Source: Escherichia phage UE-S1
Sequence record: ON568341.1
DNA length: 64,000 nucleotides
Strand: one strand, 5' to 3'
Shown here: in pieces, positions 1 through 16,405 of the stretch
Layout: each line of letters starts with the position of its first letter
Numbering within the stretch: position 1 is the stretch's first letter
Position numbers and translations under genes: made by a program
Notes under the pieces: model-generated
What the model was told of the DNA's origin: nothing
Database searches by the model: none
What the model saw: only the letters and a program-made list of their open reading frames with translations

Positions 1-258
1 AATTACGGTTTCAATTCAGGCGGTTGTGAAAAATATCAGTACTTTATAACTGCTGATGGCGGTGTCCTGGGTATTAATACAGTTATTGTAAACATTCAGA
101 AAATTAATTTCAATGATCCAGACGATAGCCAGTTTTACATTATAGGCGTAGACGTGAACTATGAGGATGACTCACTAACTGATGATTACACTGGCGAGAA
201 GTTAGAAAGTGCATACGGTGAAGATGATTATCAGTCAGTACCAGAAGATTTCGAATAA
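1..258 (+). CDS. hypothetical protein, 5-prime truncated at window edge
   Basis: frame 1 open from base 1 to TAA 256-258; promoter follows immediately. Confidence 0.45.
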   Translation, partial: NYGFNSGGCEKYQYFITADGGVLGINTVIVNIQKINFNDPDDSQFYIIGVDVNYEDDSLTDDYTGEKLESAYGEDDYQSVPEDFE

Positions 259-272
259 TATTAAAAAATAGT

Positions 273-300
273 TTGACAATAGATTATAGTACTGTATAAT
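273..300 (+). promoter_or_regulatory. sigma70-type promoter (TTGACA-16-TATAAT)
   Basis: TTGACA 273-278, TATAAT 295-300. Confidence 0.6.
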
Positions 301-317
301 AGTTTACATCAAGAAAC

Positions 318-337
318 GGGAAGTAACAGTACTTCCC
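318..337 (+). promoter_or_regulatory. 5-prime UTR stem-loop (GGGAAGTA / TACTTCCC)
   Basis: perfect 8-bp stem, 4-nt loop, between promoter and RBS; same architecture recurs upstream of many early genes. Confidence 0.5.
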
Positions 338-358
338 TACTAACAGAGAGAAAACAAA

Positions 359-571
359 ATGGCTGATATCCGCACTTTACTGAAAAATGCAAAACGAGTT
401 TTATTTTCTGATCACGAACATTTAAACAAGGATATTACTGGCGTTCGGAATATCAAAGATGTAAAACGTGTTATGGGTATCTATTGCAATATGAAACGTG
501 TTGGCACGTTCGGTAATAAATTTCTATACCAGGCGGGGGATTACAATTTTACACTGACTATCATTAACTAA
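359..571 (+). CDS. hypothetical small early protein (70 aa)
   Basis: ORF track; promoter + hairpin + A/G-rich RBS upstream. Confidence 0.6.
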   Translation: MADIRTLLKNAKRVLFSDHEHLNKDITGVRNIKDVKRVMGIYCNMKRVGTFGNKFLYQAGDYNFTLTIIN

Positions 572-590
572 AAATATTATCACAGTACTA

Positions 591-619
591 TTGACATAGT
601 TTGATAGTACTGGCATAAT
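591..619 (+). promoter_or_regulatory. sigma70-type promoter (TTGACA-17-CATAAT)
   Basis: TTGACA 591-596, CATAAT 614-619. Confidence 0.55.
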
Positions 620-653
620 AGATTTTATCAACTACACTACTAAGGAATTAAAA

Positions 654-833
654 ATGGCTATCATCGCAAAAACTGAAATCATCGGCCTGGATTCTATCAT
701 CATGACGTTTGAAGATCAAAAAGGTATGTATGTAGTTTCCTATGGTGATTATGTTCGGGAGTATGAAACAGTAGACGAAGCCTTTGAAAGTTACATTCGC
801 CAGGTGAATAAAGCATACGACGATTACCGCTAA
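654..833 (+). CDS. hypothetical small protein (59 aa)
   Basis: ATG 654 after RBS AAGGAA; not in ORF track (below 60 aa); stop TAA 831-833. Confidence 0.5.
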   Translation: MAIIAKTEIIGLDSIIMTFEDQKGMYVVSYGDYVREYETVDEAFESYIRQVNKAYDDYR

Positions 834-860
834 AATATATTACCAGTACTATTAAAGATA

Positions 861-889
861 TTGACAACGTTTGATAGTACTGGCATAAT
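861..889 (+). promoter_or_regulatory. sigma70-type promoter (TTGACA-17-CATAAT)
   Basis: near-identical copy of promoter at 591-619. Confidence 0.55.
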
Positions 890-946
890 AAGTTTTATAA
901 ACAGTAGTCAAATAGTAGTTAACTTAACAAAAGAGAGAGAAACAAA

Positions 947-1090
947 ATGATCGCACTGGATTCATTCATCGATGCAGTTCTGGCAAAAACTGGCGAGGAT
1001 CTGACCGCAGAACAATACGCAATGATCGAGCAATGCCAGCAAGACGGTAAATCGGTGAAAGATACTGTTAAGATTATCCGCAAGATGTAA
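947..1090 (+). CDS. hypothetical small protein (47 aa)
   Basis: ATG 947 after AGAGAGAGAAACAAA RBS; terminator-like hairpin follows. Confidence 0.45.
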   Translation: MIALDSFIDAVLAKTGEDLTAEQYAMIEQCQQDGKSVKDTVKIIRKM

Positions 1091-1096
1091 GATTAT

Positions 1097-1124
1097 AAGC
1101 CCATTAGTTAACGCTGGTGGGCTT
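1097..1124 (+). terminator. terminator-like hairpin (AAGCCCA / TGGGCTT)
   Basis: 7-bp stem, weak T-run. Confidence 0.3.
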
Positions 1125-1196
1125 TAATCATTTACCCTATACAATGCCAGTACTAAACCGTTTATCTCATTAGAATGCATTACAGGACGTTTAACA

Positions 1197-1394
1197 ATGA
1201 TTAGCATGAAATCAGTACAAAAACAAATAGAAACATTATCAAAAATTAAACGTAAACAGTACTCATTAGAATATAATATCAATGGTAACTATCATCTAAT
1301 GAAAGAGAATAATTTTATCGTCATTGATGAATCATTGCAAATTATTAGTATAGTACTGAAAGCATTAATTAATGATAGAAAAAGGTTAAAATAA
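1197..1394 (+). CDS. hypothetical protein (65 aa)
   Basis: ORF track; weak RBS; 1-nt overlap with next gene. Confidence 0.4.
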   Translation: MISMKSVQKQIETLSKIKRKQYSLEYNINGNYHLMKENNFIVIDESLQIISIVLKALINDRKRLK

Positions 1395-1651
1395 TGGCAG
1401 TAGGATTCGCGAAAGATGGAGCCGAGCAAGATGAGATTAACGCAGTTATTCAAGCCGCCGTTAACCACGCTAGAAAGCAAATTAACGCACAAATAGAATC
1501 ACTGATACATTGCCTCGACTGCGGCGATAAAATCCCTGAGAATCGCCGACAGGCTGTTAAGGGATGTAAGTACTGCATTAATTGCCAAGTGGATCATGAT
1601 AGTACTTTTAAAAGAGATCCGCGTAATTGTTGGCATAGATCTATGAGATAA
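1394..1651 (+). CDS. putative TraR/DksA-like C4 zinc-finger protein
   Basis: CLDCGDKIPENRRQAVKGCKYCINCQ matches the Cx2C-x17-Cx2C pattern of TraR/DksA zinc fingers. Confidence 0.5.
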   Translation: MAVGFAKDGAEQDEINAVIQAAVNHARKQINAQIESLIHCLDCGDKIPENRRQAVKGCKYCINCQVDHDSTFKRDPRNCWHRSMR

Positions 1652-1658
1652 AAAGTAA

Positions 1659-1686
1659 TTGACAGTACTGAAAGATAGTGTATAAT
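1659..1686 (+). promoter_or_regulatory. sigma70-type promoter (TTGACA-16-TATAAT)
   Basis: TTGACA 1659-1664, TATAAT 1681-1686. Confidence 0.6.
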
Positions 1687-1715
1687 GTTTTATATCTTAA
1701 CTGAGGATAGAAATC

Positions 1716-2072
1716 ATGGGAATACAACATATCACGCGGACCACTGACAATGGCGAGATCACTGGTTATCAAGTACAGGGCAAAGTAGCACAATTGCAGT
1801 ACTGGTTTGTTAAACGTGGAATCATTGCACCGGATCTTGATTATGACCGTGTAGCGTTTATTGATTCTCTTTATGTTGATCCTGATAGTCGGGGCAATGG
1901 TGAAGGTAACGAATTAATGAATGCCTTTATCGATGCCGCCGATGATTCAGATTGTATCATCTTAGAATGCGATACGGGAGAAGATAACGCCTTTAATCTT
2001 AAAGAATGGTACGAAGGATTCGGATTCGAGGTACTGATCGATAGTGAATATCCTATCATGATTTTATCATAG
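1716..2072 (+). CDS. hypothetical protein, possible GNAT-like acetyltransferase
   Basis: VDPDSRGNGEGNELMNAF resembles GNAT motif A (R-x-x-G-x-G); 118 aa. Confidence 0.45.
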   Translation: MGIQHITRTTDNGEITGYQVQGKVAQLQYWFVKRGIIAPDLDYDRVAFIDSLYVDPDSRGNGEGNELMNAFIDAADDSDCIILECDTGEDNAFNLKEWYEGFGFEVLIDSEYPIMILS

Positions 2073-2150
2073 TACTTGCATTTAGTTTTCAGTACTGTTA
2101 TAGTACTTGCATCAAGGGGAAACATCTTCCCCTACTAAGAGGAAATAAAA

Positions 2151-2339
2151 ATGGAAAACTTATCAAGTATTTTAGTACAAGATGATTTCGGTAATCCTGG
2201 AAGTGCTATCATTGTTCGGGGCAATAAAGCAACGTTTGTTATTGCTGGTGGACCCGTACAGCGTAGCATTAAAAATAATGCTGTTACCATTAATAATGTA
2301 CGCTATCGCTTAGATAAAGAATTAATTCATAAACTGTAA
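2151..2339 (+). CDS. hypothetical small early protein (62 aa)
   Basis: promoter, GGGGAA..TTCCCC hairpin and RBS upstream. Confidence 0.55.
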   Translation: MENLSSILVQDDFGNPGSAIIVRGNKATFVIAGGPVQRSIKNNAVTINNVRYRLDKELIHKL

Positions 2340-2347
2340 AAAAGTAC

Positions 2348-2375
2348 TGGACAATAGATTATAGTACTGTATAAT
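2348..2375 (+). promoter_or_regulatory. sigma70-type promoter (TGGACA-16-TATAAT)
   Basis: near-copy of promoter at 273-300. Confidence 0.55.
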
Positions 2376-2424
2376 AGTTTACATGAAGGGGAGAAATGAT
2401 TCTCCCCACTAAGAGGAAAGAAAA

Positions 2425-2637
2425 ATGCAAGGTCAACTAATCGTTCGTAAATGGTCTGATACTAACGAAAAACCGTGGGATGTACAATACATCGCCCCAA
2501 ATGGTGAATCCAGATATCAACCAGGTGTAACGCATAGTACTGAGCAATTCGCCGCCGCTCATCGCGAACGTCTGTTACAATCAATGCAGCACGGTTCCGG
2601 TGAAAAATTCATTCAGGATCATTGGCTGAAAGATTAA
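2425..2637 (+). CDS. hypothetical small early protein (70 aa)
   Basis: promoter, hairpin and RBS AAGAGGAAAG upstream. Confidence 0.6.
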   Translation: MQGQLIVRKWSDTNEKPWDVQYIAPNGESRYQPGVTHSTEQFAAAHRERLLQSMQHGSGEKFIQDHWLKD

Positions 2638-2644
2638 AAAGTAC

Positions 2645-2672
2645 TTGCACAGTACTGAATAAAGTGTATAAT
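2645..2672 (+). promoter_or_regulatory. sigma70-type promoter (TTGCAC-16-TATAAT)
   Basis: TTGCAC 2645-2650, TATAAT 2667-2672. Confidence 0.55.
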
Positions 2673-2723
2673 GTTTTATATCGGAAGGGGAATAGTTCCC
2701 CTCCTAACAAAGAGGAAAGTATA

Positions 2724-2897
2724 ATGGTCCAGGTAGAATTAACAGTACTGAAAGATCTGTTTTATCGGATTGGTACTACTGGCGAATATCCGAAGGGTGA
2801 TAATGCAAAACTTTACGTATCACTCGACTTATGGCAACGCGAACAATTAGCAACGGCCTGGCGTAAAGGCAAAGCAGATAGCGAGGTGAAAGCATGA
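2724..2897 (+). CDS. hypothetical small protein (57 aa)
   Basis: ATG 2724 after RBS; track ORF 2622-2897 would run through the promoter, so the internal start is preferred. Confidence 0.5.
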   Translation: MVQVELTVLKDLFYRIGTTGEYPKGDNAKLYVSLDLWQREQLATAWRKGKADSEVKA

Positions 2898-3043
2898 AAG
2901 AATTCTTATTTGAAGTAGTGTTTCAAGGTGTCGGTAATAACCAACTGATTCGAACAAGTGGTTATAATGTTAACCAGGCATGGAATAACATTAAACAAAT
3001 GTACCCGAACGCTATCACATATCGCAACCCGAAAGAAGTTTAA
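2894..3043 (+). CDS. hypothetical small protein (49 aa)
   Basis: ATGA overlap with upstream stop; not in track (below 60 aa). Confidence 0.4.
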   Translation: MKEFLFEVVFQGVGNNQLIRTSGYNVNQAWNNIKQMYPNAITYRNPKEV

Positions 3044-3052
3044 AAATAATTG

Positions 3053-3093
3053 AAAAAGGGATTGACTCCGGTCAGTCCCTTTGCTATTATATA
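3053..3093 (+). promoter_or_regulatory. repeated promoter-like dyad element, copy 1 (TTGACT-17-TATTAT)
   Basis: AAAAAGGGATTGACTCCGGTCAGTCCCTTTGCTATTATATA; exact copies at 6060 and 8319. Confidence 0.55.
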
Positions 3094-3191
3094 CGCATAG
3101 AAACAAATTAGCCCACCGGGTGCATAAATGTATCTATTGTTTGCTGGTGGCTAGTACTATCAAGTACTGAAAACTATTTTTAAAAAAGTAC

Positions 3192-3219
3192 TTGCAAAGT
3201 ATCACGATAAGCGTATAAT
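3192..3219 (+). promoter_or_regulatory. sigma70-type promoter (TTGCAA-16-TATAAT)
   Basis: TTGCAA 3192-3197, TATAAT 3214-3219; structured ORF-less segment downstream. Confidence 0.5.
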
Positions 3220-3307
3220 GTTTTACATCAGGACGGGGAACGAAATAAGTAACCCCGTTAAGTAGTCCAGGAGTAAGACATACGAAAAACTCCCCTGATA
3301 AAATAGT

Positions 3308-3335
3308 TTGACAATAGAAAGTAAACGAGTATAAT
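3308..3335 (+). promoter_or_regulatory. sigma70-type promoter (TTGACA-16-TATAAT)
   Basis: TTGACA 3308-3313, TATAAT 3330-3335. Confidence 0.55.
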
Positions 3336-3368
3336 ACTTACATCAACCACTGATAAGGAAACATTAAA

Positions 3369-3644
3369 ATGCGGACTTTACTTACAGCTAACGAAATCGA
3401 GCAAGTACTGACTACTAATCTGGAACAATGGAAACGTGAAGCAGATATCCAGGCGGTTCAATGCCTTAACGATAAGTTAACGCCAGATGACTTAAGCACG
3501 ATTGTTGATCCACAATTTTATGAAGATATTCACGACACGTCTTTAAGCGTCGAGGATGTACTTGATAAGCACTACATTGATACTGATTTACATGTTTACG
3601 GTCGTAAAAACTTTATCACTATTCACGACATTTACAATACTTAA
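3369..3644 (+). CDS. hypothetical early protein (91 aa)
   Basis: promoter and RBS upstream. Confidence 0.6.
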   Translation: MRTLLTANEIEQVLTTNLEQWKREADIQAVQCLNDKLTPDDLSTIVDPQFYEDIHDTSLSVEDVLDKHYIDTDLHVYGRKNFITIHDIYNT

Positions 3645-3647
3645 GTA

Positions 3648-3675
3648 TTGACAAAGTATCTTAGTACTGTATAAT
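3648..3675 (+). promoter_or_regulatory. sigma70-type promoter (TTGACA-16-TATAAT)
   Basis: TTGACA 3648-3653, TATAAT 3670-3675. Confidence 0.55.
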
Positions 3676-3731
3676 AGTTTACATCAAGCGAGGGGAATGG
3701 TTCCCCTCCTAACAAAGAGAGAGAAATAAAA

Positions 3732-4055
3732 ATGGCTATGATCCTTACCCAGAAAGTAGAACTGAAAATTGTAACCTCCTTTGACATTAAAGTTAATCGG
3801 TGGACTGATAGCCACGGCAATACTTACCACTCCTGCTACGTGTCCGCATTGATTGGTGATCGCTGGGAAGACCTGGGACACGAAACCTTTACATACGGTT
3901 ACGGCACACAAGGCGAGTACACGGGTTTAGAAATCATTAAGGAAACTGTAATAGGTTTCAACCCGAAAGAGAAAGTACTACACAGAATTGAGAAAGAGAT
4001 CAACAAAGAAATTACAGTTCGCTACTACGATGTAAAACGTAAGAAAGACATGTAA
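3732..4055 (+). CDS. hypothetical early protein (107 aa)
   Basis: promoter, GGGGAATGGTTCCCC hairpin, RBS. Confidence 0.6.
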   Translation: MAMILTQKVELKIVTSFDIKVNRWTDSHGNTYHSCYVSALIGDRWEDLGHETFTYGYGTQGEYTGLEIIKETVIGFNPKEKVLHRIEKEINKEITVRYYDVKRKKDM

Positions 4056-4077
4056 TAGAATCCATTTAAAGTACTAT

Positions 4078-4106
4078 TTGACATTGCCCAGATAGTACTT
4101 TATAAT
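4078..4106 (+). promoter_or_regulatory. sigma70-type promoter (TTGACA-17-TATAAT)
   Basis: TTGACA 4078-4083, TATAAT 4101-4106. Confidence 0.55.
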
Positions 4107-4150
4107 AGACTCTAACTTGTAGTACTAACTCAACTAATAGGATGTATACC

Positions 4151-4546
4151 ATGATTACTAAATTCTACGCTACCCGTGAAGCTGCCCGTATTGTTGCACG
4201 CGAGGAAGGAGCAGCATTTAAAGACATGGGCAAAGATGCAACGAAAGGTCAACGCTGGGCCGTACAGTTCAAAGAAATCTCTGATATTGTGAATTCACCT
4301 GAGCCAGTACTGACAGCAGCAGAACTAAAACGAGCGGATATGCTGGCGGCAATACTTGACGCACAAGATGAGTTTATCGCTGACTCTGATATCAAAGTAC
4401 AGGTAAACCACACCGCATGGACTCACGCGGATCACCTGGCAAACCTTAAGCGTCCAAGTGAACTGATTCGCAACCAGAAAGAGATCCGACATGATCGTAA
4501 GGGTAATCGTGTAACAGTATACAGTAAACGCCGCCAGGTTATCTAA
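4151..4546 (+). CDS. hypothetical protein (131 aa; alternative start 4142)
   Basis: AGGA RBS 9 nt upstream of ATG 4151; intrinsic terminator follows. Confidence 0.6.
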   Translation: MITKFYATREAARIVAREEGAAFKDMGKDATKGQRWAVQFKEISDIVNSPEPVLTAAELKRADMLAAILDAQDEFIADSDIKVQVNHTAWTHADHLANLKRPSELIRNQKEIRHDRKGNRVTVYSKRRQVI

Positions 4547-4568
4547 TAACTTGCAGTACTAACAACAC

Positions 4569-4593
4569 GGCGGGATCAGTTCCCGCCTTTTTT
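4569..4593 (+). terminator. rho-independent terminator
   Basis: GGCGGGA / TCCCGCC stem followed by TTTTTT. Confidence 0.7.
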
Positions 4594-4607
4594 ATAGGAC
4601 AAACAAA

Positions 4608-4862
4608 ATGATTAAGGTTCAACTATATAAAGATAACATCTTACGGGTACACTATAAAGCACCTCAGAGAATCATCACAAAGGCCGTACAGCTTGCTAAT
4701 GAGTTTATTAATGGTAACCTATTACCTAGGAAGTTAAGCAACGGAAAACTGCGTGTAATCGACGTGGACACTAACAACAGGATAGTAATCGAGAACACAG
4801 GAAAAATAAACCTATATGAACACCAACAATACAATAAGAAAATAAAACTAATATCACGTTGA
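4608..4862 (+). CDS. hypothetical protein (84 aa)
   Basis: RBS GGACAAACAAA upstream. Confidence 0.5.
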   Translation: MIKVQLYKDNILRVHYKAPQRIITKAVQLANEFINGNLLPRKLSNGKLRVIDVDTNNRIVIENTGKINLYEHQQYNKKIKLISR

Positions 4863-4887
4863 CAGTACTCAAATGTTTTAGTATTAT
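4859..4887 (+). promoter_or_regulatory. sigma70-type promoter (TTGACA-17-TATTAT), duplicated unit A
   Basis: 60-bp promoter/5-prime UTR block nearly identical to 5135-5191. Confidence 0.5.
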
Positions 4888-4915
4888 GTACACATACCAA
4901 CACGGGAGAAACAAA

Positions 4916-5134
4916 ATGAAATTATCTAAAATCGAAAAGAAAACTATTGATGAAGCAGTTAAGCACGGTTATACCTTTCGTAATGATTCACATTTTACCA
5001 ATTTTCAACAGGGGTATCGTACTATTAAAAAACTAATTGACAAAGGTTTATTAGTTGAAGTCAATAATGGGAACGGTATCGAGTATCAGCCAACCCAAGA
5101 CGCATTATCTTTAAAGAAATATAATATTATCTAA
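4916..5134 (+). CDS. hypothetical protein (72 aa)
   Basis: ATG 4916 after GGGAGAAACAAA RBS; track ORF from 4859 includes the promoter. Confidence 0.55.
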   Translation: MKLSKIEKKTIDEAVKHGYTFRNDSHFTNFQQGYRTIKKLIDKGLLVEVNNGNGIEYQPTQDALSLKKYNII

Positions 5135-5163
5135 TTGACAGTACTCAAATGTTTTAGTACTAT
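5135..5163 (+). promoter_or_regulatory. sigma70-type promoter (TTGACA-17-TACTAT), duplicated unit B
   Basis: copy of 4859-4887 block. Confidence 0.5.
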
Positions 5164-5191
5164 ATGTACATACCAACACGGGGGAAACAAA

Positions 5192-5434
5192 ATGATTACT
5201 TTAGAAAAACGTATCAAAGAAACTACATCGCTGGTGGAACTGTTAACAGTACTCAAATGTAAAACAACACCATTTAGCACGCCGGACTTTATTAATATGG
5301 TTGATGTTAATGGTCGCTATCGTATCACGGTCGAACAAGGAGCGGCGAAAGTATTCAGTACTAAAAACACGAAGGAAGTGATCCACGCCGTTAATGTTAA
5401 AAAAGTAGTTGCCATTGATAGTAAAGTACTGTAA
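5192..5434 (+). CDS. hypothetical protein (80 aa)
   Basis: ATG 5192 after GGGGGAAACAAA RBS. Confidence 0.55.
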   Translation: MITLEKRIKETTSLVELLTVLKCKTTPFSTPDFINMVDVNGRYRITVEQGAAKVFSTKNTKEVIHAVNVKKVVAIDSKVL

Positions 5435-5465
5435 TATAGTTTCATTAACTCAAGGAGAACATGCA

Positions 5466-6050: not shown

Positions 6051-6059
6051 AAAAGATTA

Positions 6060-6100: not shown

Positions 6101-6191
6101 TCCATTGAGAGATAACTCACTGACCCATAGGGTGCGGAAGTGTATCTATTATATAAGTATTCAGTACTGAAAACTATTTTTAAAAAAGTAC

Positions 6192-10496: not shown

Positions 10497-10708
10497 ATAT
10501 CATTGCGAACTCACATCAATATACCGAACGCGTCGCTGCCAGACAACTTGAAATCCTCATAATATACGAAGAAACTTCTGATTTAAACTTAGCTGAGGTA
10601 TTGGAAAATGAAATACTTTTGGGTGCATTCTTGGGAACAGACTATCAGGAGTATTATGAGGAAAAGTATTTGTCATCTCTTGAGAAATACATCAGGAGTA
10701 AACAATGA
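10493..10708 (+). CDS. FamA small paralog
   Basis: motif LGTDYQEYYE. Confidence 0.65.
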   Translation: MNIIANSHQYTERVAARQLEILIIYEETSDLNLAEVLENEILLGAFLGTDYQEYYEEKYLSSLEKYIRSKQ

Positions 10709-10932
10709 AACATTTAAGTATAAGAGAGAAGAATAAAATTATCATCAATGTCATGAACCGATATAATCAACTATTGGATAGAGAATACTCAAGTTCATAT
10801 GTGCACAGGATAAACACTACGGATGTACGCATGATGGCTGTACTGGGGACAAACTATCAGGAAAGTTATGTTCATGAGCACATAGTTGCACTCACTAATT
10901 ACATAATGGACAAATGTAATGAACATCATTAA
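10705..10932 (+). CDS. FamA small paralog
   Basis: motif LGTNYQESYV. Confidence 0.65.
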   Translation: MKHLSIREKNKIIINVMNRYNQLLDREYSSSYVHRINTTDVRMMAVLGTNYQESYVHEHIVALTNYIMDKCNEHH

Positions 10933-11143
10933 TAACTTTGAATACGAGGCCCGTGTTAAGAGTGCCAGAGAAAAAGAGAACACCATTTACTTCACTATGA
11001 TGTACTTACAATGGACTGAAATTGAAGAAAAGGTTGCTGAAGTATGGATGTTGGAATTCATGGGGACGCAGTATCAGAATATGTTTGCGGGTGAGTATAT
11101 CAATGTTCTTATGAAACAAATAGAAAGGAAGGAAAAGAACTAA
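10919..11143 (+). CDS. FamA small paralog
   Basis: motif MGTQYQNMF. Confidence 0.6.
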   Translation: MNIINNFEYEARVKSAREKENTIYFTMMYLQWTEIEEKVAEVWMLEFMGTQYQNMFAGEYINVLMKQIERKEKN

Positions 11144-11232
11144 TGGAGGGATGCTGTACTTTATTTGAACTTTTATATATTCATGAACACATAGTTGCCC
11201 TCACAAATCTAATAAAGGATAAATGTAAATGA
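11143..11232 (+). pseudogene. truncated FamA paralog remnant (29 codons)
   Basis: encodes MEGCCTLFELLYIHEHIVALTNLIKDKCK; 3-prime part matches C-terminus of gene 10705-10932 (HEHIVALTNYIMDKC); central motif deleted; start/stop overlaps retained. Confidence 0.4.
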
Positions 11233-11486
11233 AACACTTGACTGATGATGAACATGAAACTATAATTCGTAAACTAACCCCCATCACAAGGATAGTATAC
11301 GGTGATCCCAGCCTTACATGGAACCAAATGCAAGCTAAAGTTAATGAGCTATGGTTGCTGTACTTTATGGGGACTCAATATCAAGATAAGTTTTGCACAG
11401 AATATATCGAACAATTAACGAATGTTATACAGGATAAACTAAATGAACGAATTGTGGAAAAATATGAAAACTTTATCAAGCATTGA
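11229..11486 (+). CDS. FamA small paralog
   Basis: motif MGTQYQDKF. Confidence 0.6.
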   Translation: MKHLTDDEHETIIRKLTPITRIVYGDPSLTWNQMQAKVNELWLLYFMGTQYQDKFCTEYIEQLTNVIQDKLNERIVEKYENFIKH

Positions 11487-11715
11487 GTATCAGACTGCCC
11501 TCTTCTCTCTTCTAAATACCCTCCGCACGAACAATAAACTTTATAATTCCCGTGAAGCTGATATTGTCAACGCTGATGTATATCTTAATAAATTCATTGG
11601 GACTAACTATCAAGAACTGTTTGTTTTACGATATATCTCTGCACTAAGAAACGAAATATCAGATAAAACCCGACAAGCCAGAAGAGAATGGAAGAAACAA
11701 TGCGACACAGACTAA
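11443..11715 (+). CDS. FamA small paralog
   Basis: motif IGTNYQELFV. Confidence 0.6.
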   Translation: MNELWKNMKTLSSIEYQTALFSLLNTLRTNNKLYNSREADIVNADVYLNKFIGTNYQELFVLRYISALRNEISDKTRQARREWKKQCDTD

Positions 11716-11951
11716 ATCACAAAATGTATTGTAAACTATTACAGGAACTGACACAGAAACACTATAATACAATATCTTCCATATTACCCTATGATATCAT
11801 GCGTTTAATTCATAGTGAGGCAGAGATGTTAGTACTGATGACCGGTACTGATAAAATAGCAATCACCAGATCGATAGAGCAATATATTGATGCACACTGT
11901 CAATGTATTAGAACTGAGATATGGAGGCGAGTAAATGAAAGTACTGAATGA
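11688..11951 (+). CDS. FamA-like divergent paralog
   Basis: motif degenerate (MTGTDKIAI); same size and packing. Confidence 0.5.
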   Translation: MEETMRHRLNHKMYCKLLQELTQKHYNTISSILPYDIMRLIHSEAEMLVLMTGTDKIAITRSIEQYIDAHCQCIRTEIWRRVNESTE

Positions 11952-12150
11952 GTATCAGTATCATTGGAGGTTACAAACTATAAGAGGGAAAGTTGTTAGT
12001 ATTTCTTTAGACAAGTCTATTGCACAAGAGGACAAATGTGTTATAATAGCTGAAATGAAGTTGGGTGTATTTGTAGGAACAAACTATCAAAACATCTACA
12101 CTGACGTATTATTAAGTGCCTTACGCAACAAGGTGTTATCCAGAGAATGA
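11935..12150 (+). CDS. FamA small paralog
   Basis: motif VGTNYQNIYT. Confidence 0.65.
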   Translation: MKVLNEYQYHWRLQTIRGKVVSISLDKSIAQEDKCVIIAEMKLGVFVGTNYQNIYTDVLLSALRNKVLSRE

Positions 12151-12365
12151 GAAAATTAATAGGTTACGAATATGTTAAGCTTCTGAAAACCTGTAGTATT
12201 AGCAGGGTAAAGATTCAATCTGATAAGAGTATTCCTGTTGAACTAAAGTACGCAATGATGGCTGAACTTTATGTAGGTGCACTATTGGGGACAAACTATC
12301 AACAAATGTATGTAGACCTATGGGTTGACGCTCTACAGAAAGAGGTCCAAAGTAAATGCAAATGA
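12147..12365 (+). CDS. FamA small paralog
   Basis: motif LGTNYQQMYV. Confidence 0.65.
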   Translation: MRKLIGYEYVKLLKTCSISRVKIQSDKSIPVELKYAMMAELYVGALLGTNYQQMYVDLWVDALQKEVQSKCK

Positions 12366-12577
12366 TTCATTTATCTTACTATGAATATCAAAAACGTTTA
12401 AATGCATCAAGAGGTATAAGGATTCAAATCTTCAATAACAAAAGATTGAAATCTGAAGCCAAAAAAATCAAAATCATAGAAGCAGAGTTGTGCAACTTTC
12501 TAGGGACGAACTATCAGGAAGGTAAGATAAAAAACTATCTTAGAGAACTAATGATTAGTATCAAGAGTAAATGTTAG
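12356..12577 (+). CDS. FamA small paralog
   Basis: motif LGTNYQEGKI. Confidence 0.65.
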   Translation: MQMIHLSYYEYQKRLNASRGIRIQIFNNKRLKSEAKKIKIIEAELCNFLGTNYQEGKIKNYLRELMISIKSKC

Positions 12578-12581
12578 GCAG

Positions 12582-12839
12582 ATGTACATGAAAATGATTA
12601 AATTATCTCAAGCAAAATATAAAGAACGCCTGGAAAAAATTACACCTAAACTTAATGAAATCCATCACGGAGAAGTCATTAAACACGGAAATAAGATGAT
12701 TATGAAACTTGAGTTAAAGGTGGGTGCATTCATAGGAACAAACTATCAGGAGTATTATGTAGATGAATACATAATCGCACTTAAGAGATACATTGGAAGA
12801 AAACTATATCTACAAACTAAAGAATTGTATTGCAAATAA
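12582..12839 (+). CDS. FamA small paralog
   Basis: motif IGTNYQEYYV. Confidence 0.65.
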   Translation: MYMKMIKLSQAKYKERLEKITPKLNEIHHGEVIKHGNKMIMKLELKVGAFIGTNYQEYYVDEYIIALKRYIGRKLYLQTKELYCK

Positions 12840-12850
12840 ATGTGAGGTTG

Positions 12851-13120
12851 ATGAACATGCAAATGATTAATTTAAGTAAAGATGAATATACCGAGCGTAT
12901 GACAAAAATTACGCACAAACGTAATACAATCTATCACAACCCAGAAATTCAACACAGTAAGAAAATGATTATGATGCGTGAGTTAAAGATGGGTGTATTC
13001 TTAGGAACAAACTATCAAGATACAGAAGTAAATCGCTTAATCGCGGAGTTACTACTGGAAATCAGAGGTAAGCTGTACTTTCATCAAATGACCCAACCAC
13101 TGAGGTGTACTAAGAAATGA
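12851..13120 (+). CDS. FamA small paralog
   Basis: motif LGTNYQDTEV; start chosen downstream of previous stop. Confidence 0.6.
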   Translation: MNMQMINLSKDEYTERMTKITHKRNTIYHNPEIQHSKKMIMMRELKMGVFLGTNYQDTEVNRLIAELLLEIRGKLYFHQMTQPLRCTKK

Positions 13121-13332
13121 TCAACATCACATTGCAAGAAAGATTCATCCGAATCAACTATGCAATTACCAAATTAGATGCTACTATAGGATTCCAAAGT
13201 CTACCGTTCCAAACAAGAATGATATTAGAGTGCGAAGCTAAATTGGGTGTACTGTTAGGAACGCAACACCAACAACGATATGTGGAAATCTGGATTGATC
13301 TTTTAACCCAAAATGTACATGAGAAAATGTAA
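13117..13332 (+). CDS. FamA small paralog
   Basis: motif LGTQHQQRYV. Confidence 0.65.
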   Translation: MINITLQERFIRINYAITKLDATIGFQSLPFQTRMILECEAKLGVLLGTQHQQRYVEIWIDLLTQNVHEKM

Positions 13333-13569
13333 ATGAAAAATGAAATGATATACTTAACGAATGAAGAGTTTCAAGAGAAGATGTTAAAAATCTATGATAA
13401 TACTCTTGAGTACGTTCCAAATCAATCAATATATGAAGTGTCTGCGAATGTATTATTTCAGAAGCTACCATACGTTCTTGGTACTGATAAACAAGAATTT
13501 ATGGTCAAAAATATGATTGAACATCTTATGATGAGTATTAAGGAAAAAGTAAATGCAAAAACAAAATAA
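13333..13569 (+). CDS. FamA small paralog
   Basis: motif LGTDKQEFMV. Confidence 0.6.
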   Translation: MKNEMIYLTNEEFQEKMLKIYDNTLEYVPNQSIYEVSANVLFQKLPYVLGTDKQEFMVKNMIEHLMMSIKEKVNAKTK

Positions 13570-13570
13570 A

Positions 13571-13816
13571 ATGATATACTTAACACCTGCTGAGTTAACA
13601 GAAAGACTAGTTAAATCCAGAAGATATACAAATCAACTTCCTCACAACCCAAATCAAAGCCCAGCGGAAAGGAGTGCAGAAGTTTTATTCCAATCACTAC
13701 CATACCTTCTTGGAACTAATAGACAAGAGTATCATATCGAACGTATAATTAAATATCTTAAAATTACTATTAAGGAAAAGATACATGCTCAAGAATTTAA
13801 AAATCCTAACAGCTAA
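13571..13816 (+). CDS. FamA small paralog
   Basis: motif LGTNRQEYHI. Confidence 0.6.
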   Translation: MIYLTPAELTERLVKSRRYTNQLPHNPNQSPAERSAEVLFQSLPYLLGTNRQEYHIERIIKYLKITIKEKIHAQEFKNPNS

Positions 13817-14027
13817 TGAATATCATAAGATTGTAATGACGACTAATAGTGCAATTTCTAAAAAATCAAATCCCAAATACATACTGGAACACACATTTGA
13901 AGAACGACAATTAACTTTAGTTGAAGCAAAACTTCTTGCACTCCTAGGAACAAACTATCAAGAAGAGTACGTTAGAAAACTAATATACCTTTTAACTAAA
14001 CATATTAGAAAAAAGAAAAACGCATGA
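13785..14027 (+). CDS. FamA small paralog
   Basis: motif LGTNYQEEYV. Confidence 0.6.
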   Translation: MLKNLKILTANEYHKIVMTTNSAISKKSNPKYILEHTFEERQLTLVEAKLLALLGTNYQEEYVRKLIYLLTKHIRKKKNA

Positions 14028-14254
14028 AACACTTGACAGATGATGAACATGGGCTTATAGTAATGGATGTAATCAACATCGAATACAAAAAGTTGATACG
14101 CTACCGTTGTTATGAAGATAAGCAACTCGTTCTAGAAGAACAGAAGTTGTTTCGACTCTTAAACACAAACTACCAAGCACAATACGAAGAATCGTATATG
14201 TACCTTTTGGCGAGGAAAGCAAAAAGAGATTATGAAAATTTTAAGCGAAGGTGA
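14024..14254 (+). CDS. FamA small paralog
   Basis: motif LNTNYQAQYE; N-terminus MKHLTDDEH shared with gene 11229. Confidence 0.65.
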   Translation: MKHLTDDEHGLIVMDVINIEYKKLIRYRCYEDKQLVLEEQKLFRLLNTNYQAQYEESYMYLLARKAKRDYENFKRR

Positions 14255-14447
14255 TGCAGTAATATTACTTATCGAGAATTCACGTAAATTCGTAAACATA
14301 ACACTGTCTGATATAGATGAAGATGACAAAGAAGTACTGAGAGCAGATTTAAGAGTACTGTTACATCTCGGAACAAACCTACAAGAAAGATATGTAGAGT
14401 TCTACATTGATGAACTTAAAGAATCAGTACTGAAAAGATGCAAATGA
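14232..14447 (+). CDS. FamA small paralog
   Basis: motif LGTNLQERYV. Confidence 0.6.
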   Translation: MKILSEGDAVILLIENSRKFVNITLSDIDEDDKEVLRADLRVLLHLGTNLQERYVEFYIDELKESVLKRCK

Positions 14448-14665
14448 AAATCATTACTGACGAAGAATACCTAACAATCATAAATGGACTGTTTTTGAAG
14501 CTATATGCTATTAACATATCAAACCTACCAGATATGGATAAAATTATTAAGAGAAATGAAATCTATGTTCTAGCTACCCTGGGAACTAACTATCAAGAAT
14601 ACGATATTAATGATTATATTAAGACACTTAAACGAGCGATTGAACTAAAATGCCAAAACCACTAG
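14438..14665 (+). CDS. FamA small paralog
   Basis: motif LGTNYQEYDI. Confidence 0.65.
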   Translation: MQMKIITDEEYLTIINGLFLKLYAINISNLPDMDKIIKRNEIYVLATLGTNYQEYDINDYIKTLKRAIELKCQNH

Positions 14666-14865
14666 GAACAGCAGAATACATTGAACTCATGGGATTACAC
14701 TTCTCATCCTTTCAGAAACTTATGCGAGAATCAAAGAATGATTTAGAATATACCATCAGAGGTTCAGATTTAAGAATGCTTCTCACCCTAGACACAGATT
14801 CCCAAGAGCGATTTGTCAATGAGCACATTAGAGCACTTTTAATGGAAATTCAAAGTAAACTATGA
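14650..14865 (+). CDS. FamA small paralog
   Basis: motif LDTDSQERFV. Confidence 0.6.
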   Translation: MPKPLGTAEYIELMGLHFSSFQKLMRESKNDLEYTIRGSDLRMLLTLDTDSQERFVNEHIRALLMEIQSKL

Positions 14866-15077
14866 AGGAAATATCAAACCAAGAGTACTTGGCACTATTC
14901 AGAAAGAATAATCATAAATTTATGGCACTTGATACAAGAACTGATATAGGGGAACTTGAAAAAAATCTTTTGCGTTCAGAGATGATAGTACTGACACTTT
15001 TAGGAACACAGCATCAAGAGAGAACTGTTAATTCATATATTGAGATTCTTACGAAGCTTATACAGGAAAAACTATGA
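14862..15077 (+). CDS. FamA small paralog
   Basis: motif LGTQHQERTV. Confidence 0.65.
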   Translation: MKEISNQEYLALFRKNNHKFMALDTRTDIGELEKNLLRSEMIVLTLLGTQHQERTVNSYIEILTKLIQEKL

Positions 15078-15295
15078 GAATCATAACACAAACAGACATA
15101 TTTAAGTTAGCAAGAGAACATACATCTGAAATTGATGCTATAGTATCAAAAAGTTACAATGACCCTTATACACAAGATGTACACTACAATGAATTATGGG
15201 TGTATATACTTTTAGGTACAAATTATCAAGAGCAAGCAGTACAGAAGTATTTGACAGCCTTAAGTACTGCTATTGCTAATGGAATAGGTGTTTAA
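15074..15295 (+). CDS. FamA small paralog
   Basis: motif LGTNYQEQAV. Confidence 0.65.
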   Translation: MRIITQTDIFKLAREHTSEIDAIVSKSYNDPYTQDVHYNELWVYILLGTNYQEQAVQKYLTALSTAIANGIGV

Positions 15296-15539
15296 AATGC
15301 TAGTACTGACAGAACTAGAAATGTATCATAGATTTAACAAGTACTATCATTTACTTAAGCCTATACAGAGGATTAAATGTCCATTTGAAGAGAAACAGGT
15401 ATTAATTTATGAGCATAAGTTATTTGTATCATTAGGTACGAATGAACAAGAGTATTATTTGAAGTTGTACTTAATTACTTTAATTGAATTGATTAATCAC
15501 AAAACTCAGAAAGCTAAGAAATCTAAAAATGAAAACTAA
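15288..15539 (+). CDS. FamA small paralog
   Basis: motif LGTNEQEYYL. Confidence 0.6.
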   Translation: MFKMLVLTELEMYHRFNKYYHLLKPIQRIKCPFEEKQVLIYEHKLFVSLGTNEQEYYLKLYLITLIELINHKTQKAKKSKNEN

Positions 15540-15867
15540 TATTCAACTCAAGGTATACATATCTTATGAATCTATATACATCAAATGCAGTCTATGTAAA
15601 GATGTAATGGATTATAAAGGTAAGCCATTCACAATTACTTACAGTCTAACAGGAGGTTTTTATATATCTTTTGTTGATTACGAAAATAAAATATACAAGC
15701 ACATTGATATTAAAGATTTAAGTACCTTGTCAGATGAGGAATACTTTCAAGAATCATTAGTATGGGATTTAGAGTTTCCTATGACATTAGTACACAAAAT
15801 GATAGTTCTAATGAAAGAAACTAAACCTGAGCCGAGTGGTTATGAAGAATTCATTATTGAGTATTAA
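15529..15867 (+). CDS. FamB paralog (FQ-S motif family)
   Basis: motif SDEEYFQESLVWD. Confidence 0.6.
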   Translation: MKTNIQLKVYISYESIYIKCSLCKDVMDYKGKPFTITYSLTGGFYISFVDYENKIYKHIDIKDLSTLSDEEYFQESLVWDLEFPMTLVHKMIVLMKETKPEPSGYEEFIIEY

Positions 15868-15879
15868 GAGTACTGATAT

Positions 15880-16095
15880 ATGAAAATATTATCATACAAA
15901 GATTATAGTAAGCTTATCAGTGCTTTGCAACCAGAAATTAGGAGAATTAATTCTCTTCCTGTATCTAATGCAGAATGTACAGTACTGAAAAAAGAGTTAA
16001 TATTAAAACGCACAGTAGGTACTAACTATCAGGATAATAGTGTTCGAGATTTAATTAGAGGGTTAATGAACACAATAAAGGCCAAGTGCCATTGA
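15880..16095 (+). CDS. FamA small paralog
   Basis: motif VGTNYQDNSV. Confidence 0.6.
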   Translation: MKILSYKDYSKLISALQPEIRRINSLPVSNAECTVLKKELILKRTVGTNYQDNSVRDLIRGLMNTIKAKCH

Positions 16096-16101
16096 CAGTA
16101 C

Positions 16102-16130
16102 TTGACGGAGCTTTTCATTACTGATATAGT
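16102..16130 (+). promoter_or_regulatory. sigma70-type promoter (TTGACG-17-TATAGT)
   Basis: TTGACG 16102-16107, TATAGT 16125-16130. Confidence 0.45.
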
Positions 16131-16159
16131 ACACAAACGTTAATCATAGGGTAGAAATT

Positions 16160-16405
16160 ATGTTAAAATTTTTAAATTTCCTTATCGTCTTGTGTATTGT
16201 TCTTGGGATTGCACCGTTTGTACTGGTGTATATGGATTCAGATGAAATGCAAAAGATGAATTGCACAAAGACGGGACAGAGTAGAGAAGAGACGATTCTT
16301 ATGCCTGTTACCGTTATTGTTAATAATATGCCCATTACAAACATGGTCCCTAACCTAACGACAACGTACCAGTACTCTTGTACAGACGGGGAGAGGTGGA
16401 GATGA
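16160..16405 (+). CDS. hypothetical small membrane protein
   Basis: N-terminal hydrophobic segment FLNFLIVLCIVLGIAPFVLVY. Confidence 0.5.
   Translation: MLKFLNFLIVLCIVLGIAPFVLVYMDSDEMQKMNCTKTGQSREETILMPVTVIVNNMPITNMVPNLTTTYQYSCTDGERWR

What the first reader, a model, noticed from the sequence alone, without database searches (positions are those of the whole stretch)
1..16200. Strong over-representation of the palindromic hexamer AGTACT
AGTACT occurs about 7 times in the first 900 bp and roughly 20 times in the first 2.8 kb, where about one would be expected by chance. It is embedded in most early promoters (for example TTGACAatagattatAGTACTGTATAAT) and is also frequent in coding sequence across the window. 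Enrichment of a restriction-type palindrome is the opposite of the usual palindrome avoidance in phages and may mark a site for a DNA-binding, modifying or nicking activity.
Basis: seen in the sequence. Interest (0 to 1): 0.5.

Follow-up and report, generated by a model that had tools for sequence, protein, structure and literature searches.

The report
Conserved AGTACT palindrome marking jumbo-phage DNA
A short palindromic DNA word (AGTACT, full form TTCAGTACTGAA) occurs about ten times more often than chance throughout this giant E. coli phage and its relatives, sits at fixed positions in the early promoters, and is almost absent from the sampled host DNA, so it is most likely the docking site of a still unidentified DNA-binding factor that regulates and marks the phage chromosome.

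Summary
AGTACT occurs 204 times in the 64-kb window against about 17 expected. It is by far the most over-represented hexamer, is found in all three reading frames, and is 3.4 times commoner than synonymous-codon shuffles give.

The window comes from an Asteriusvirus jumbo phage (121Q/PBECO4 group). The dense block at 1 to about 9.8 kb is the right half of the ~21-kb direct terminal repeat. In relative fEgEco12 that repeat holds 6.6 sites/kb and the 5 kb after it holds none. A related whole genome has 918 sites against 101 expected; a 50-kb E. coli sample has 0.06/kb.

The same enrichment (10-18x) occurs in RaK2, GAP32, Serratia BF and Salmonella Munch, but not in Pseudomonas phage PA5oct. Sites are under purifying selection. 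In gene-free DNA the consensus is the 12-bp palindrome TTCAGTACTGAA. In sigma70-type early promoters the site occupies three registers about 10.5 bp apart.

The best reading is a recognition site for an unidentified symmetric DNA-binding factor. No cognate protein was found, and methylation is not excluded. SlmA, TrpR, repair-drive and composition explanations were tested and rejected. No prior report was found.

The parts
1..64000 (.). 204 copies of AGTACT (47 of them CAGTACTG, 9 TCAGTACTGA, 2 TTCAGTACTGAA) spread over the whole window
   Evidence: 204 observed against 17.2 expected. Symmetric flanks, with C at -1 and G at +1 (chi-square p = 0.48 for left against complemented right).
1..9800 (+). 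Dense block (70 sites, about 7/kb). It corresponds to the right half of the direct terminal repeat, which holds small early genes, each with a sigma70-type promoter.
   Evidence: window 1 to about 9.8 kb aligns to fEgEco12 9,783-20,993. The fEgEco12 repeat (1-20,993) has 138 sites and the next 5 kb has none. The repeat ends were verified experimentally in PMC13070987.
273..300 (+). Early promoter with the site abutting the -10: TTGACA(273-278)-n9-AGTACT(288-293)-g-TATAAT(295-300)
584..619 (+). Two-site promoter: AGTACT(584-589)-a-TTGACA(591-596)-n9-AGTACT(606-611)-gg-CATAAT(614-619), with the sites 22 bp apart
1659..1686 (+). Promoter with the site on the 3' edge of the -35: TTGACAGTACT (site 1664-1669), -10 at 1681-1686
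2343..2375 (+). Two-site promoter: AGTACT(2343-2348) fused to the -35 TGGACA(2348-2353), and AGTACT(2363-2368)-g-TATAAT(2370-2375), with the sites 20 bp apart
2640..2672 (+). Promoter with sites on both edges of the -35, 11 bp apart: AGTACT(2640-2645), TTGCAC(2645-2650), AGTACT(2651-2656), TATAAT(2667-2672)
2071..2107 (+). Cluster of three sites (2071, 2091, 2102) upstream of ORF 2151-2339
3153..3192 (+). Cluster of three sites (3153, 3163, 3187) upstream of ORF 3369-3644
4070..4126 (+). Cluster of three sites (4070, 4094, 4121) around the promoter of ORF 4142-4546
28072..28114 (+). Cluster of three sites inside coding sequence (28072, 28088, 28109)
10500..14300 (+). Stretch with sites at background level (2 sites), inside the tandem paralogue array just after the repeat
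17200..23600 (+). Second stretch at background level (1 site), in partly faster-evolving DNA (86.7-94.2% identity to the relative across its bins)
23600..64000 (+). 115 sites (2.85/kb), nearly all in coding sequence, with no positional relation to gene starts or to -10-like hexamers
48217..48750 (+). Small Dam-family (PF05869) N6-adenine methyltransferase, the only methyltransferase in the window. It is syntenic in GAP32, BF and Munch and is a candidate only under the modification alternative.

Best explanation
AGTACT is the invariant core of a symmetric recognition sequence whose optimum is TTCAGTACTGAA. It is read on double-stranded DNA by a sequence-specific factor, probably a homodimer, that is conserved in the enterobacterial RaK2-like jumbo phages. 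Two roles are inferred. (1) At the host-type (sigma70) early promoters packed into the terminal repeat, the site works like an operator. It abuts the 5' edge of the -35 hexamer, the 3' edge of the -35 hexamer or the -10 hexamer, often as a pair 20-22 bp apart that brackets the -35 and spacer. Occupancy would therefore collide with sigma regions 4 and 3 and most likely shut off or time early transcription. (2) The roughly 9-fold excess everywhere else, including in coding DNA on either strand, makes phage DNA 40-100 times richer in sites than the sampled host DNA. The same factor would therefore coat or mark the phage chromosome selectively in a phage that builds no nucleus-like compartment. 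Shown here: the statistics, the symmetry, the promoter placement rules, the purifying selection, the clade distribution and the contrast with the host sample. Inferred: that a protein binds, that it represses, and what marking achieves.
For: Enrichment: 204 sites against 17 in the window; 918 against 101 in a related whole genome, in regions of either gene orientation. Selection acts on DNA and not on protein: all three frames are used and the count is 3.4x the synonymous-shuffle expectation. Within the genus, 179/198 sites are fully conserved, against 76% of flanking control hexamers (Fisher p = 2e-5) and 70% of all hexamers. Between genera, 6-8 sites share an alignment column in orthologues of about 47% amino-acid identity, against about 0.1 expected. 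Symmetry and length: C at -1 and G at +1 are symmetric (p = 0.48). In the gene-free 1.7 kb at the genome end the consensus is TTCAGTACTGAA. The relative's genome has 16 perfect 12-mers, which I estimate to be far above chance (about 0.04). Promoter placement: site starts peak at -7/-8, -17/-18 and -27 to -30 from the -10 hexamer in the window, ECO103, GAP32, BF and Munch. Pair spacing peaks at 20-23 bp, 63 pairs against about 20. 13 of 18 strong promoter-like sites in the window's early region, and about 29 of 39 in the fEgEco12 repeat, carry the site. Clade: 10-18x enrichment in RaK2, GAP32, BF and Munch and in a RaK2-like metagenomic contig; none in PA5oct. Host contrast: 3 sites in 50 kb of E. 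coli K-12. Terminal-repeat link: 6.6/kb in the repeat and 0 in the next 5 kb.
Against: No reader was identified. A Pfam census of 521 ORFs (55-330 aa) of a related genome found no Xre, TetR, MarR or RHH-type domain, only sigma70 regions 3/4. The two annotated small regulators are not conserved across the clade: the 72-aa ORF at window 4916-5134 and CBB_511. About 900 sites per genome is far more than any classical operator set, and the coding-region sites have no demonstrated function. Two regions of the genome do without the motif. Methylation of the site cannot be excluded with these tools. Repression, as opposed to activation, is inferred from geometry only.
Confidence: 0.5

Rival explanations
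1. AGTACT is the target of a phage-encoded DNA modification, for example N6-adenine methylation. The mark, read directly by RNA polymerase or by a reader protein, acts as an epigenetic label: fully modified incoming DNA against newly replicated DNA, or phage against host.
For: A small Dam-family methyltransferase (PF05869) is conserved and syntenic in the window, GAP32, BF and Munch. AGTACT-specific methylation exists in a giant virus (PMC7253447). Methylation sites overlapping -10/-35 hexamers are an established way of coupling transcription to replication (Dam/GATC in IS10 and P1; my own knowledge).
Against: Protection by modification does not select for more sites. The preferred sequence extends to a 12-bp palindrome, longer than usual methyltransferase targets. 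The 177-aa enzyme has little room for a 6-8-bp specificity domain (inference). The C5 methyltransferase is reported as CpG-specific in RaK2 (PMC3622015), and AGTACT has no CpG. There are no ScaI/RsaI or methylome data for the clade. fEgEco12 DNA is cut normally by ten other enzymes.
Confidence: 0.2
2. The sites recruit or titrate a host (Enterobacterales) DNA-binding protein. The most interesting candidate is the nucleoid-occlusion factor SlmA, whose site GTGAGTACTCAC has the same core. Binding would block FtsZ and explain the filamentation of infected cells.
For: The SlmA site shares 8 of 12 positions with TTCAGTACTGAA, including T2, A4 and G5 (PMC3020112). All motif-rich phages infect Enterobacterales, and the Pseudomonas relative lacks the motif. 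Sharanji infection causes filamentation with diffuse phage DNA (PMC11895373). No phage-encoded DNA-binding domain was found.
Against: There are 0 canonical SlmA sites (GTRAGYRCTYAC) in the window or in 350 kb of a relative. Only 19 of 918 sites have even one good SlmA half-flank. Position 1 (G, required by SlmA) is not enriched. Position 3 is mostly C, and G is the least used base there, whereas SlmA accepts purines. Chromosomal SlmA sites are not in promoters. TrpR-type geometry (GNACT-N8-AGTNC) is not enriched.
Confidence: 0.1
3. AGTACT is simply a core promoter element, an extended -35/-10 or UP-like element, for host RNA polymerase or for polymerase carrying the phage sigma70-like factor.
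For: It sits at fixed registers against the -35 and -10 hexamers in several genera. In AGTACTgg-CATAAT promoters it supplies a canonical TGn extended -10. The phage sigma70-like factor is conserved across the clade.
Against: Three different registers, not one. The element is a palindrome. 158 of 204 sites lie inside genes with no relation to starts, and outside the early region only 6 of 132 are followed by a -10-like hexamer, which is the random rate. The densest stretch is 1.7 kb of gene-free terminal DNA.
Confidence: 0.07
4. The motif acts in RNA (AGUACU), for example as the cleavage site of a phage or host endoribonuclease that turns over early transcripts, by analogy with T4 RegB.
For: Density falls from early to late regions. 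All genes in the window are on one strand, so a palindrome cannot discriminate DNA from RNA by strand.
Against: The flanks are symmetric on the coding strand (p = 0.48), which an RNA site has no reason to be. Many sites lie upstream of the transcription start, at fixed distances from the -35/-10 hexamers. Density is similar where genes are on the other strand.
Confidence: 0.04
5. The excess is a by-product of composition, codon or dipeptide usage, repeated cassettes, or a mutational or repair drive (Vsr/Dcm-type) and not of selection for function.
For: Repeated promoter cassettes contribute some of the copies in the terminal repeat. The amino-acid sequence itself raises the expectation from 21 to 47.
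Against: The excess exceeds every Markov order tested and every shuffle. One-mismatch neighbours are not depleted (AGTATT 1.22x; range 0.59-2.14), contrary to a very-short-patch-repair-type drive. Sites are conserved above their flanks and across genera. The enrichment is present in unique coding DNA of five genera.
Confidence: 0.02

Closest known systems
SlmA-binding sites (SBS, GTGAGTACTCAC) of E. coli and Noc-binding sites of B. subtilis: dispersed palindromic sites that load a chromosome-marking protein
   Same: A 12-bp palindrome with the identical AGTACT core; tens to hundreds of copies dispersed over a replicon; uneven regional distribution that carries information; read by a dimeric helix-turn-helix protein in the known cases.
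   Different: The outer positions differ (TTC...GAA against GTG...CAC) at bases SlmA requires. There are 0 canonical SBS in the phage. The phage sites sit in promoters whereas SBS do not. Density is roughly 200 times higher (about 900 sites in 350 kb against about 50 in 4.6 Mb).
Operator sets of global phage and plasmid repressors (KorB OB sites of IncP plasmids, P1 C1 operators)
   Same: One palindromic site reused at many promoters, placed next to or over the -35/-10; paired sites in helical phase; coordinated control of a block of genes.
   Different: Those systems have about 10-20 sites and a known repressor gene. Here there are about 900 sites, most of them intragenic, and no recognisable repressor.
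Dam/GATC with SeqA: a short palindrome that is both a genome-wide epigenetic mark and a regulatory element in some promoters
   Same: A short palindrome present throughout the genome and also overlapping -10/-35 elements of particular promoters; local clustering (oriC there, the terminal repeat here).
   Different: GATC is not over-represented ten-fold. Modification of AGTACT is not shown. The preferred sequence here extends to 12 bp.
phi29 protein p6, a viral histone-like protein that coats the whole genome and represses an early promoter
   Same: The proposed dual role: genome-wide binding to viral DNA plus control of early transcription, with the strongest action at the genome ends.
   Different: p6 reads a bendability pattern and not a discrete sequence word. 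No homologue was sought or found here.
Over-represented oriented words (Chi, KOPS) and DNA uptake sequences
   Same: Short words maintained far above chance by selection, in coding DNA as well.
   Different: Those words are asymmetric and strand-skewed or tied to uptake. AGTACT is a palindrome with positional rules in promoters.

Membership tests
SlmA-binding site (SBS) | 12-bp palindrome GTRAGYRCTYAC, with G1, T2, A4 and G5 required (PMC3020112) | tested here: not met
   0 matches in the window and 0 in 350 kb of the relative. 19 of 918 sites have one SlmA-type half-flank. Position 3 is mostly C.
SlmA-binding site (SBS) | Sites lie outside promoter regions | tested here: not met
   13 of 18 strong early promoter-like sites in the window carry the site at fixed registers.
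Operator of a dimeric repressor | Dyad-symmetric recognition sequence | tested here: met
   Symmetric flanks (p = 0.48); TTCAGTACTGAA consensus in non-coding DNA.
Operator of a dimeric repressor | Overlap with or abutment to the -35/-10 at a reproducible position | tested here: met
   Registers at -7/-8, -17/-18 and -27 to -30 in four genera plus Munch; pair spacing of 20-23 bp.
Operator of a dimeric repressor | An identifiable cognate DNA-binding protein | tested here: not met
   The Pfam census of 521 ORFs found no classical DNA-binding domain. The two small annotated regulators are not clade-wide.
Operator of a dimeric repressor | Actual protein binding and an effect on transcription | not testable with these tools
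   Needs EMSA, DAP-seq and reporter assays.
Type II restriction-modification target (ScaI type) | A cognate methyltransferase of that specificity, with the site modified in virion DNA | not testable with these tools
   Only a PF05869 Dam-type and a PF00145 C5 methyltransferase are present, and their specificity cannot be read from sequence. No digests or methylomes have been published.
Type II restriction-modification target (ScaI type) | A discrete 6-bp word without flank preference | tested here: not met
   Strong C/G preference at +/-1 and T/A at +/-2 and +/-3.
Repair-driven word excess (Dcm/Vsr type) | Depletion of the deamination neighbour (AGTATT/AATACT) | tested here: not met
   AGTATT is at 1.22x expectation.
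TrpR operator | Inverted GNACT half-sites with an 8-bp gap (AGTACT starts 14 bp apart) | tested here: not met
   4 pairs at 14 bp, which is background level.
Oriented architecture words (Chi, KOPS) | Asymmetric word with strand skew | tested here: not met
   The word and its flanks are palindromic.

The most novel reading that the evidence does not exclude
The enterobacterial RaK2-like jumbo phages, which have no hypermodified bases and build no phage nucleus, use a sequence word in place of a chemical mark to tell their own DNA from the host's. A conserved reader from a protein family not yet recognised as DNA-binding loads on about 900 TTCAGTACTGAA-type sites per genome. Density is highest on the terminal repeats that form both physical ends and enter the cell first.
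Probability: 0.25. Interest if true: 0.85.

Novelty: new variant of a known kind. Interest (0 to 1): 0.7.

Why it matters
Phages normally purge short palindromes to escape restriction. Here a restriction-type palindrome is kept at about ten times chance across 350 kb, in at least four named genera plus Salmonella phage Munch, under measurable purifying selection. That implies a major and still unknown DNA-protein (or DNA-mark) system in a group of phages being developed for therapy, 80% of whose genes have no known function.

It also makes several questions directly testable with one oligonucleotide:
- What shuts off early genes in these phages.
- What defines the 21-kb terminal repeat.
- How a jumbo phage without a nucleus distinguishes its DNA from the host's.

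The motif is also a practical signature. It flags RaK2-like contigs in metagenomes and marks the repeat boundary.

Tried and rejected
- **Composition, codon or dipeptide artefact:** rejected by Markov models up to order 4 and three kinds of shuffle.
- **Internal promoters for the coding sites:** rejected. There is no bias towards gene starts and no -10-like hexamer downstream.
- **SlmA recruitment:** no canonical sites, and the wrong flanks.
- **TrpR:** half-site resemblance only, and the wrong spacing.
- **LexA:** CAG-TA-CTG has the half-sites in the reverse arrangement to CTGT-N8-ACAG. I judged this from the sequence and did not count it.
- **Vsr-type mutational drive:** no depleted neighbour.
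- **Systematic sequencing error at a modified site (11 AGTTCT/AGTACT differences):** explained as synonymous GTT/GTA valine codons.
found in Asteriusvirus and in unrelated phages, but not in GAP32, BF, Munch or RaK2.
no homologue in the Asteriusvirus genome.
- **Pfam census of the whole related genome:** no classical DNA-binding domain. The PHROGs census returned only families of unknown function.
- **General 10.5-bp phasing of sites:** only the 20-23-bp pair peak exists.
- **Literature:** ten searches found no report of the motif in this clade and no ScaI/RsaI or methylome data.
- **Rfam scan of the window:** no hits.
- **Not used:** structure prediction and fold search, because no candidate was specific enough to justify them.

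Full report
**Identity of the window.** The first 8 kb and the last 25 kb match Asteriusvirus jumbo coliphages (JP4, ph0011, 121Q, Sharanji, phAPEC6 and others) at 92-97% identity. All genes called in the window are on the + strand. The window carries many small ORFs, a Dam-type methyltransferase, an RNA ligase, a polynucleotide kinase and a phosphatase.

**The observation.** AGTACT occurs 204 times in 64 kb. Dinucleotide-preserving shuffles give 17.2 +/- 4.0, with a maximum of 28. Against Markov backgrounds of order 1 to 4, AGTACT and its one-base extensions CAGTAC/GTACTG are the strongest hexamer outliers. No other palindromic hexamer exceeds 1.7x.

Codon or dipeptide usage does not explain the excess. 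The 158 sites wholly inside called genes use all three frames (67/34/57). Counting overlaps, 160 in-gene sites compare with 47 +/- 6 when synonymous codons are shuffled within each gene, and 21.5 when codon order is shuffled.

**Anatomy of the word.** The flanks are symmetric: C at -1 (44%) and G at +1 (50%). The left flank is indistinguishable from the complemented right flank (chi-square p = 0.48). Genome-wide in a close relative, C at -1 is the main extra information and G there is disfavoured.

Where no coding constraint applies, the word is longer. That is the gene-free first 1.7 kb of the fEgEco12 genome, where 17 sites give the consensus TTCAGTACTGAA, a perfect 12-bp palindrome. The relative's 350-kb sequence holds 204 CAGTACTG, 48 TCAGTACTGA and 16 perfect 12-mers. 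My rough estimate of the chance expectation for the 12-mer is about 0.04.

**Distribution.** In the window, density is 6.9/kb over 1-10.5 kb. There, intergenic DNA carries about 14/kb and coding DNA about 4.4/kb. Density is at background in 10.5-14.3 kb (2 sites) and 17.2-23.6 kb (1 site), and 2.85/kb from 23.6 kb to the end.

The dense block is the terminal repeat. Phage fEgEco12 has experimentally verified ends and a 20,993-bp direct terminal repeat (PMC13070987). Window 1 to about 9.8 kb aligns to fEgEco12 9,783-20,993. The fEgEco12 repeat carries 138 sites, evenly spread at 6.6/kb, and the 5 kb after the repeat boundary carries none.

Over the 350 kb of relative ECO103 4-12-1 there are 918 sites against 101 expected. 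Sites are present in every 5-kb bin and in regions of either gene orientation. Density falls from 6-8/kb in the early small-gene region to 2.5-3/kb and then 1.5-2/kb in the late regions. A 50-kb sample of E. coli K-12 has 3 sites, or 0.06/kb. That puts phage DNA 40-100 times richer in the word than this host sample.

**Promoter placement.** The early region is a series of sigma70-type promoters. Relative to the first base of the -10 hexamer, AGTACT starts at three preferred positions:
- -7/-8, abutting the -10.
- -17/-18, on the 3' edge of the -35 (TTGACAGTACT).
- -27 to -30, fused to or just upstream of the -35 (AGTAC-TTGCAA, AGTACTa-TTGACA).

The same three peaks appear in the window, ECO103, GAP32, BF and Munch. 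The registers are about 10.5 bp apart, which places them on one face of the helix. Pooled over six phages, the only preferred distance between neighbouring sites is 20-23 bp (63 pairs against about 20), which is the pair bracketing the -35 and spacer.

In the window, 13 of 18 strong promoter-like sequences in 1-10.5 kb carry the site in these registers. In the fEgEco12 repeat the figure is about 29 of 39. One four-copy promoter cassette lacks the site.

The coding-region sites are different. They show no bias towards the next start codon. Outside the early region only 6 of 132 are followed by a -10-like hexamer, which is the random rate. They are not promoters.

**Selection.** Against ECO103 (92.9% identity), 179 of 198 aligned sites (90.4%) are fully conserved. 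The figures are 69.8% for all hexamers and 76.1% for control hexamers 12 bp away (Fisher p = 2e-5; binomial p = 3e-12).

In orthologous genes of GAP32, BF and Munch (about 47% amino-acid identity), 6/23, 8/25 and 7/31 of the window's sites sit in exactly the same alignment column as a site in the other phage, against about 0.1 expected. The remaining sites have turned over while density is kept at 3-4/kb. Sites are gained and lost through silent changes such as GTT/GTA valine codons.

A repair-type mutational drive is not supported. One-mismatch neighbours are not depleted: AGTATT is at 1.22x, and the range is 0.59-2.14x.

**Phylogenetic extent.** AGTACT is the top hexamer in each of these 50-kb samples:
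- RaK2 (Alcyoneusvirus): 119 against 12.
- GAP32 (Mimasvirus): 253 against 14.
- Serratia phage BF (Eneladusvirus): 246 against 15.
- Salmonella phage Munch: 205 against 15.

A 26-kb CBB sample holds 78 sites, for which I computed no expectation. RaK2's early region and a RaK2-like metagenomic contig are also dense: 72 against 2.4 in 11 kb, and 86 against 3.8 in 12.6 kb. The flank preference shifts from C/G in Asteriusvirus and RaK2 to mostly A/T in GAP32, BF and Munch. The nearest outgroup examined, Pseudomonas phage PA5oct, has 1 site against 7.8 expected. The trait therefore belongs to the enterobacterial RaK2-like clade and is old.

**What reads it.** I could not identify a reader.
- The 72-aa winged-helix-like ORF at 4916-5134 is annotated as a transcriptional regulator in one relative and has no Pfam hit. 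It occurs only in Asteriusvirus and some unrelated phages.
- CBB_511 (HTH_37), next to the phage sigma70-like factor, has no homologue in Asteriusvirus, although the sigma factor itself is conserved at 35% identity.
- A Pfam scan of 521 ORFs (55-330 aa) of the relative found no Xre, TetR, MarR or RHH-type domain. It found sigma70 regions 3/4, one C5 methyltransferase, one PF05869 Dam-type methyltransferase, a DksA/TraR zinc finger and a ParE-like toxin. One family in the third batch remained unlisted.
- PHROGs added nothing.

**Host-factor candidates.** The E. coli nucleoid-occlusion protein SlmA binds GTGAGTACTCAC. It requires G1, T2, A4 and G5, with a purine at position 3 (PMC3020112). The phage optimum shares 8 of 12 positions. 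However, there is not one canonical SlmA site in the window or in 350 kb, and the phage prefers C at position 3 and shows no G at position 1. Sharanji-infected cells do filament (PMC11895373), so I keep this as a low-probability alternative. TrpR half-sites (GNACT) resemble the word, but the TrpR spacing is not enriched.

**Modification.** RaK2 is reported to carry CpG 5-methylcytosine and two methyltransferases (PMC3622015). AGTACT has no CpG. fEgEco12 DNA is cut as predicted by ten enzymes, none of which tests AGTACT. No ScaI/RsaI or methylome data exist in the searched literature. The 12-bp symmetric preference and the selection for more sites fit a binding protein better than a methyltransferase target, but modification is not excluded.

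**Interpretation.** The most economical reading is a symmetric double-stranded-DNA recognition site for a conserved factor.

At early promoters the geometry covers the extended -10 region and the upstream edge of the -35, often as a phased pair. That predicts interference with sigma regions 3 and 4 and the alpha C-terminal domain, and therefore shut-off or timing of early genes. The genome-wide excess and the 40-100-fold contrast with the host sample suggest that the same factor marks the phage chromosome. Density is highest on the terminal repeats that form both physical ends.

These functional steps are inferences. The statistics, symmetry, promoter placement, selection and clade distribution are shown.

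**Prior knowledge.** Ten full-text searches and readings of the genome papers for CBB, RaK2, PA5oct, Sharanji, fEgEco12, phAPEC6 and JP4 found no mention of this motif. The GAP32 paper is not in the library and could not be checked.

Noticed in passing
window 9872-17151 (plus 28711-28902): A tandem array of 28 paralogous genes of about 70-75 aa starts right after the terminal repeat. AGTACT density inside the array is uneven: almost none in 10.5-14.3 kb and 14 sites in 14.3-17.2 kb. A second paralogue family of about 150-aa genes lies at 24.6-26.9 kb, with further members at 32.2-32.7 and 33.4-33.9 kb.
   Followed up: partly
window 2376-2420, 2680-2720, 3676-3730, 6528-6590, 8050-8100, 8930-8960: Nearly every early promoter is followed by a conserved leader (TATAATrgTTTTACATC) and then a GGGGA...TCCCC hairpin immediately before the Shine-Dalgarno sequence. 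It looks like a repeated promoter-plus-5'UTR cassette. Rfam has no match.
   Followed up: partly
window 4608-4862 and 4916-5134: A ParE-like toxin-domain gene (Pfam E = 6e-11, conserved in GAP32, BF and Munch) is followed by a 72-aa winged-helix-like ORF. This could be a toxin-antitoxin-like pair inside the terminal repeat. Both promoters carry TTGACAGTACTC.
   Followed up: partly
window, whole: GATC is depleted two-fold (119 against 235 expected; TGATCA 0.2x, AGATCT 0.32x), even though the phage encodes a Dam-family methyltransferase. The depletion is also seen in Munch, but hardly or not at all in GAP32, BF or RaK2.
   Followed up: partly
window 3062-3090, 6069-6097, 8328-8356; fEgEco12 locus L014 9498-9526, 13496-13524, 16765-16793, 19517-19545: A distinct repeated promoter cassette without AGTACT: gggaTTGACTccggtcagtccctttgcTATTAT. 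Its -35 lies within a near-palindrome (TGACTCCGGTCA), which may be the operator of a different regulator.
   Followed up: no
L014 (fEgEco12) 1-1700: The gene-free genome end holds, besides 17 AGTACT sites, short tandem and dispersed repeats: GGCTGGATGG / CTAGACGGCTAAACGG around 800-910, GGATTTTGGGCGTAG three times, and a 44-bp duplication at 1535/1588. These may be packaging, injection or replication signals.
   Followed up: partly
window 1394-1651: A DksA/TraR-type zinc-finger protein (Pfam E = 3.5e-11) is encoded among the earliest genes and is 73% identical in Munch. It is a likely modulator of the RNA polymerase secondary channel.
   Followed up: no
window 26070-26154: ARAGORN calls a tRNA-Cys with anticodon ACA inside ORF 26022-26510. 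This is probably a false positive.
   Followed up: no
L004 (Salmonella phage Munch) 1-50000: A second palindrome, TCGCGA, is enriched in Munch only (18 against 3.8 expected).
   Followed up: no
window 52000-56000: This stretch is 99.1-99.6% identical to phage ECO103 4-12-1, while the rest of the window is 87-96% identical, which suggests a recent recombinational exchange.
   Followed up: no
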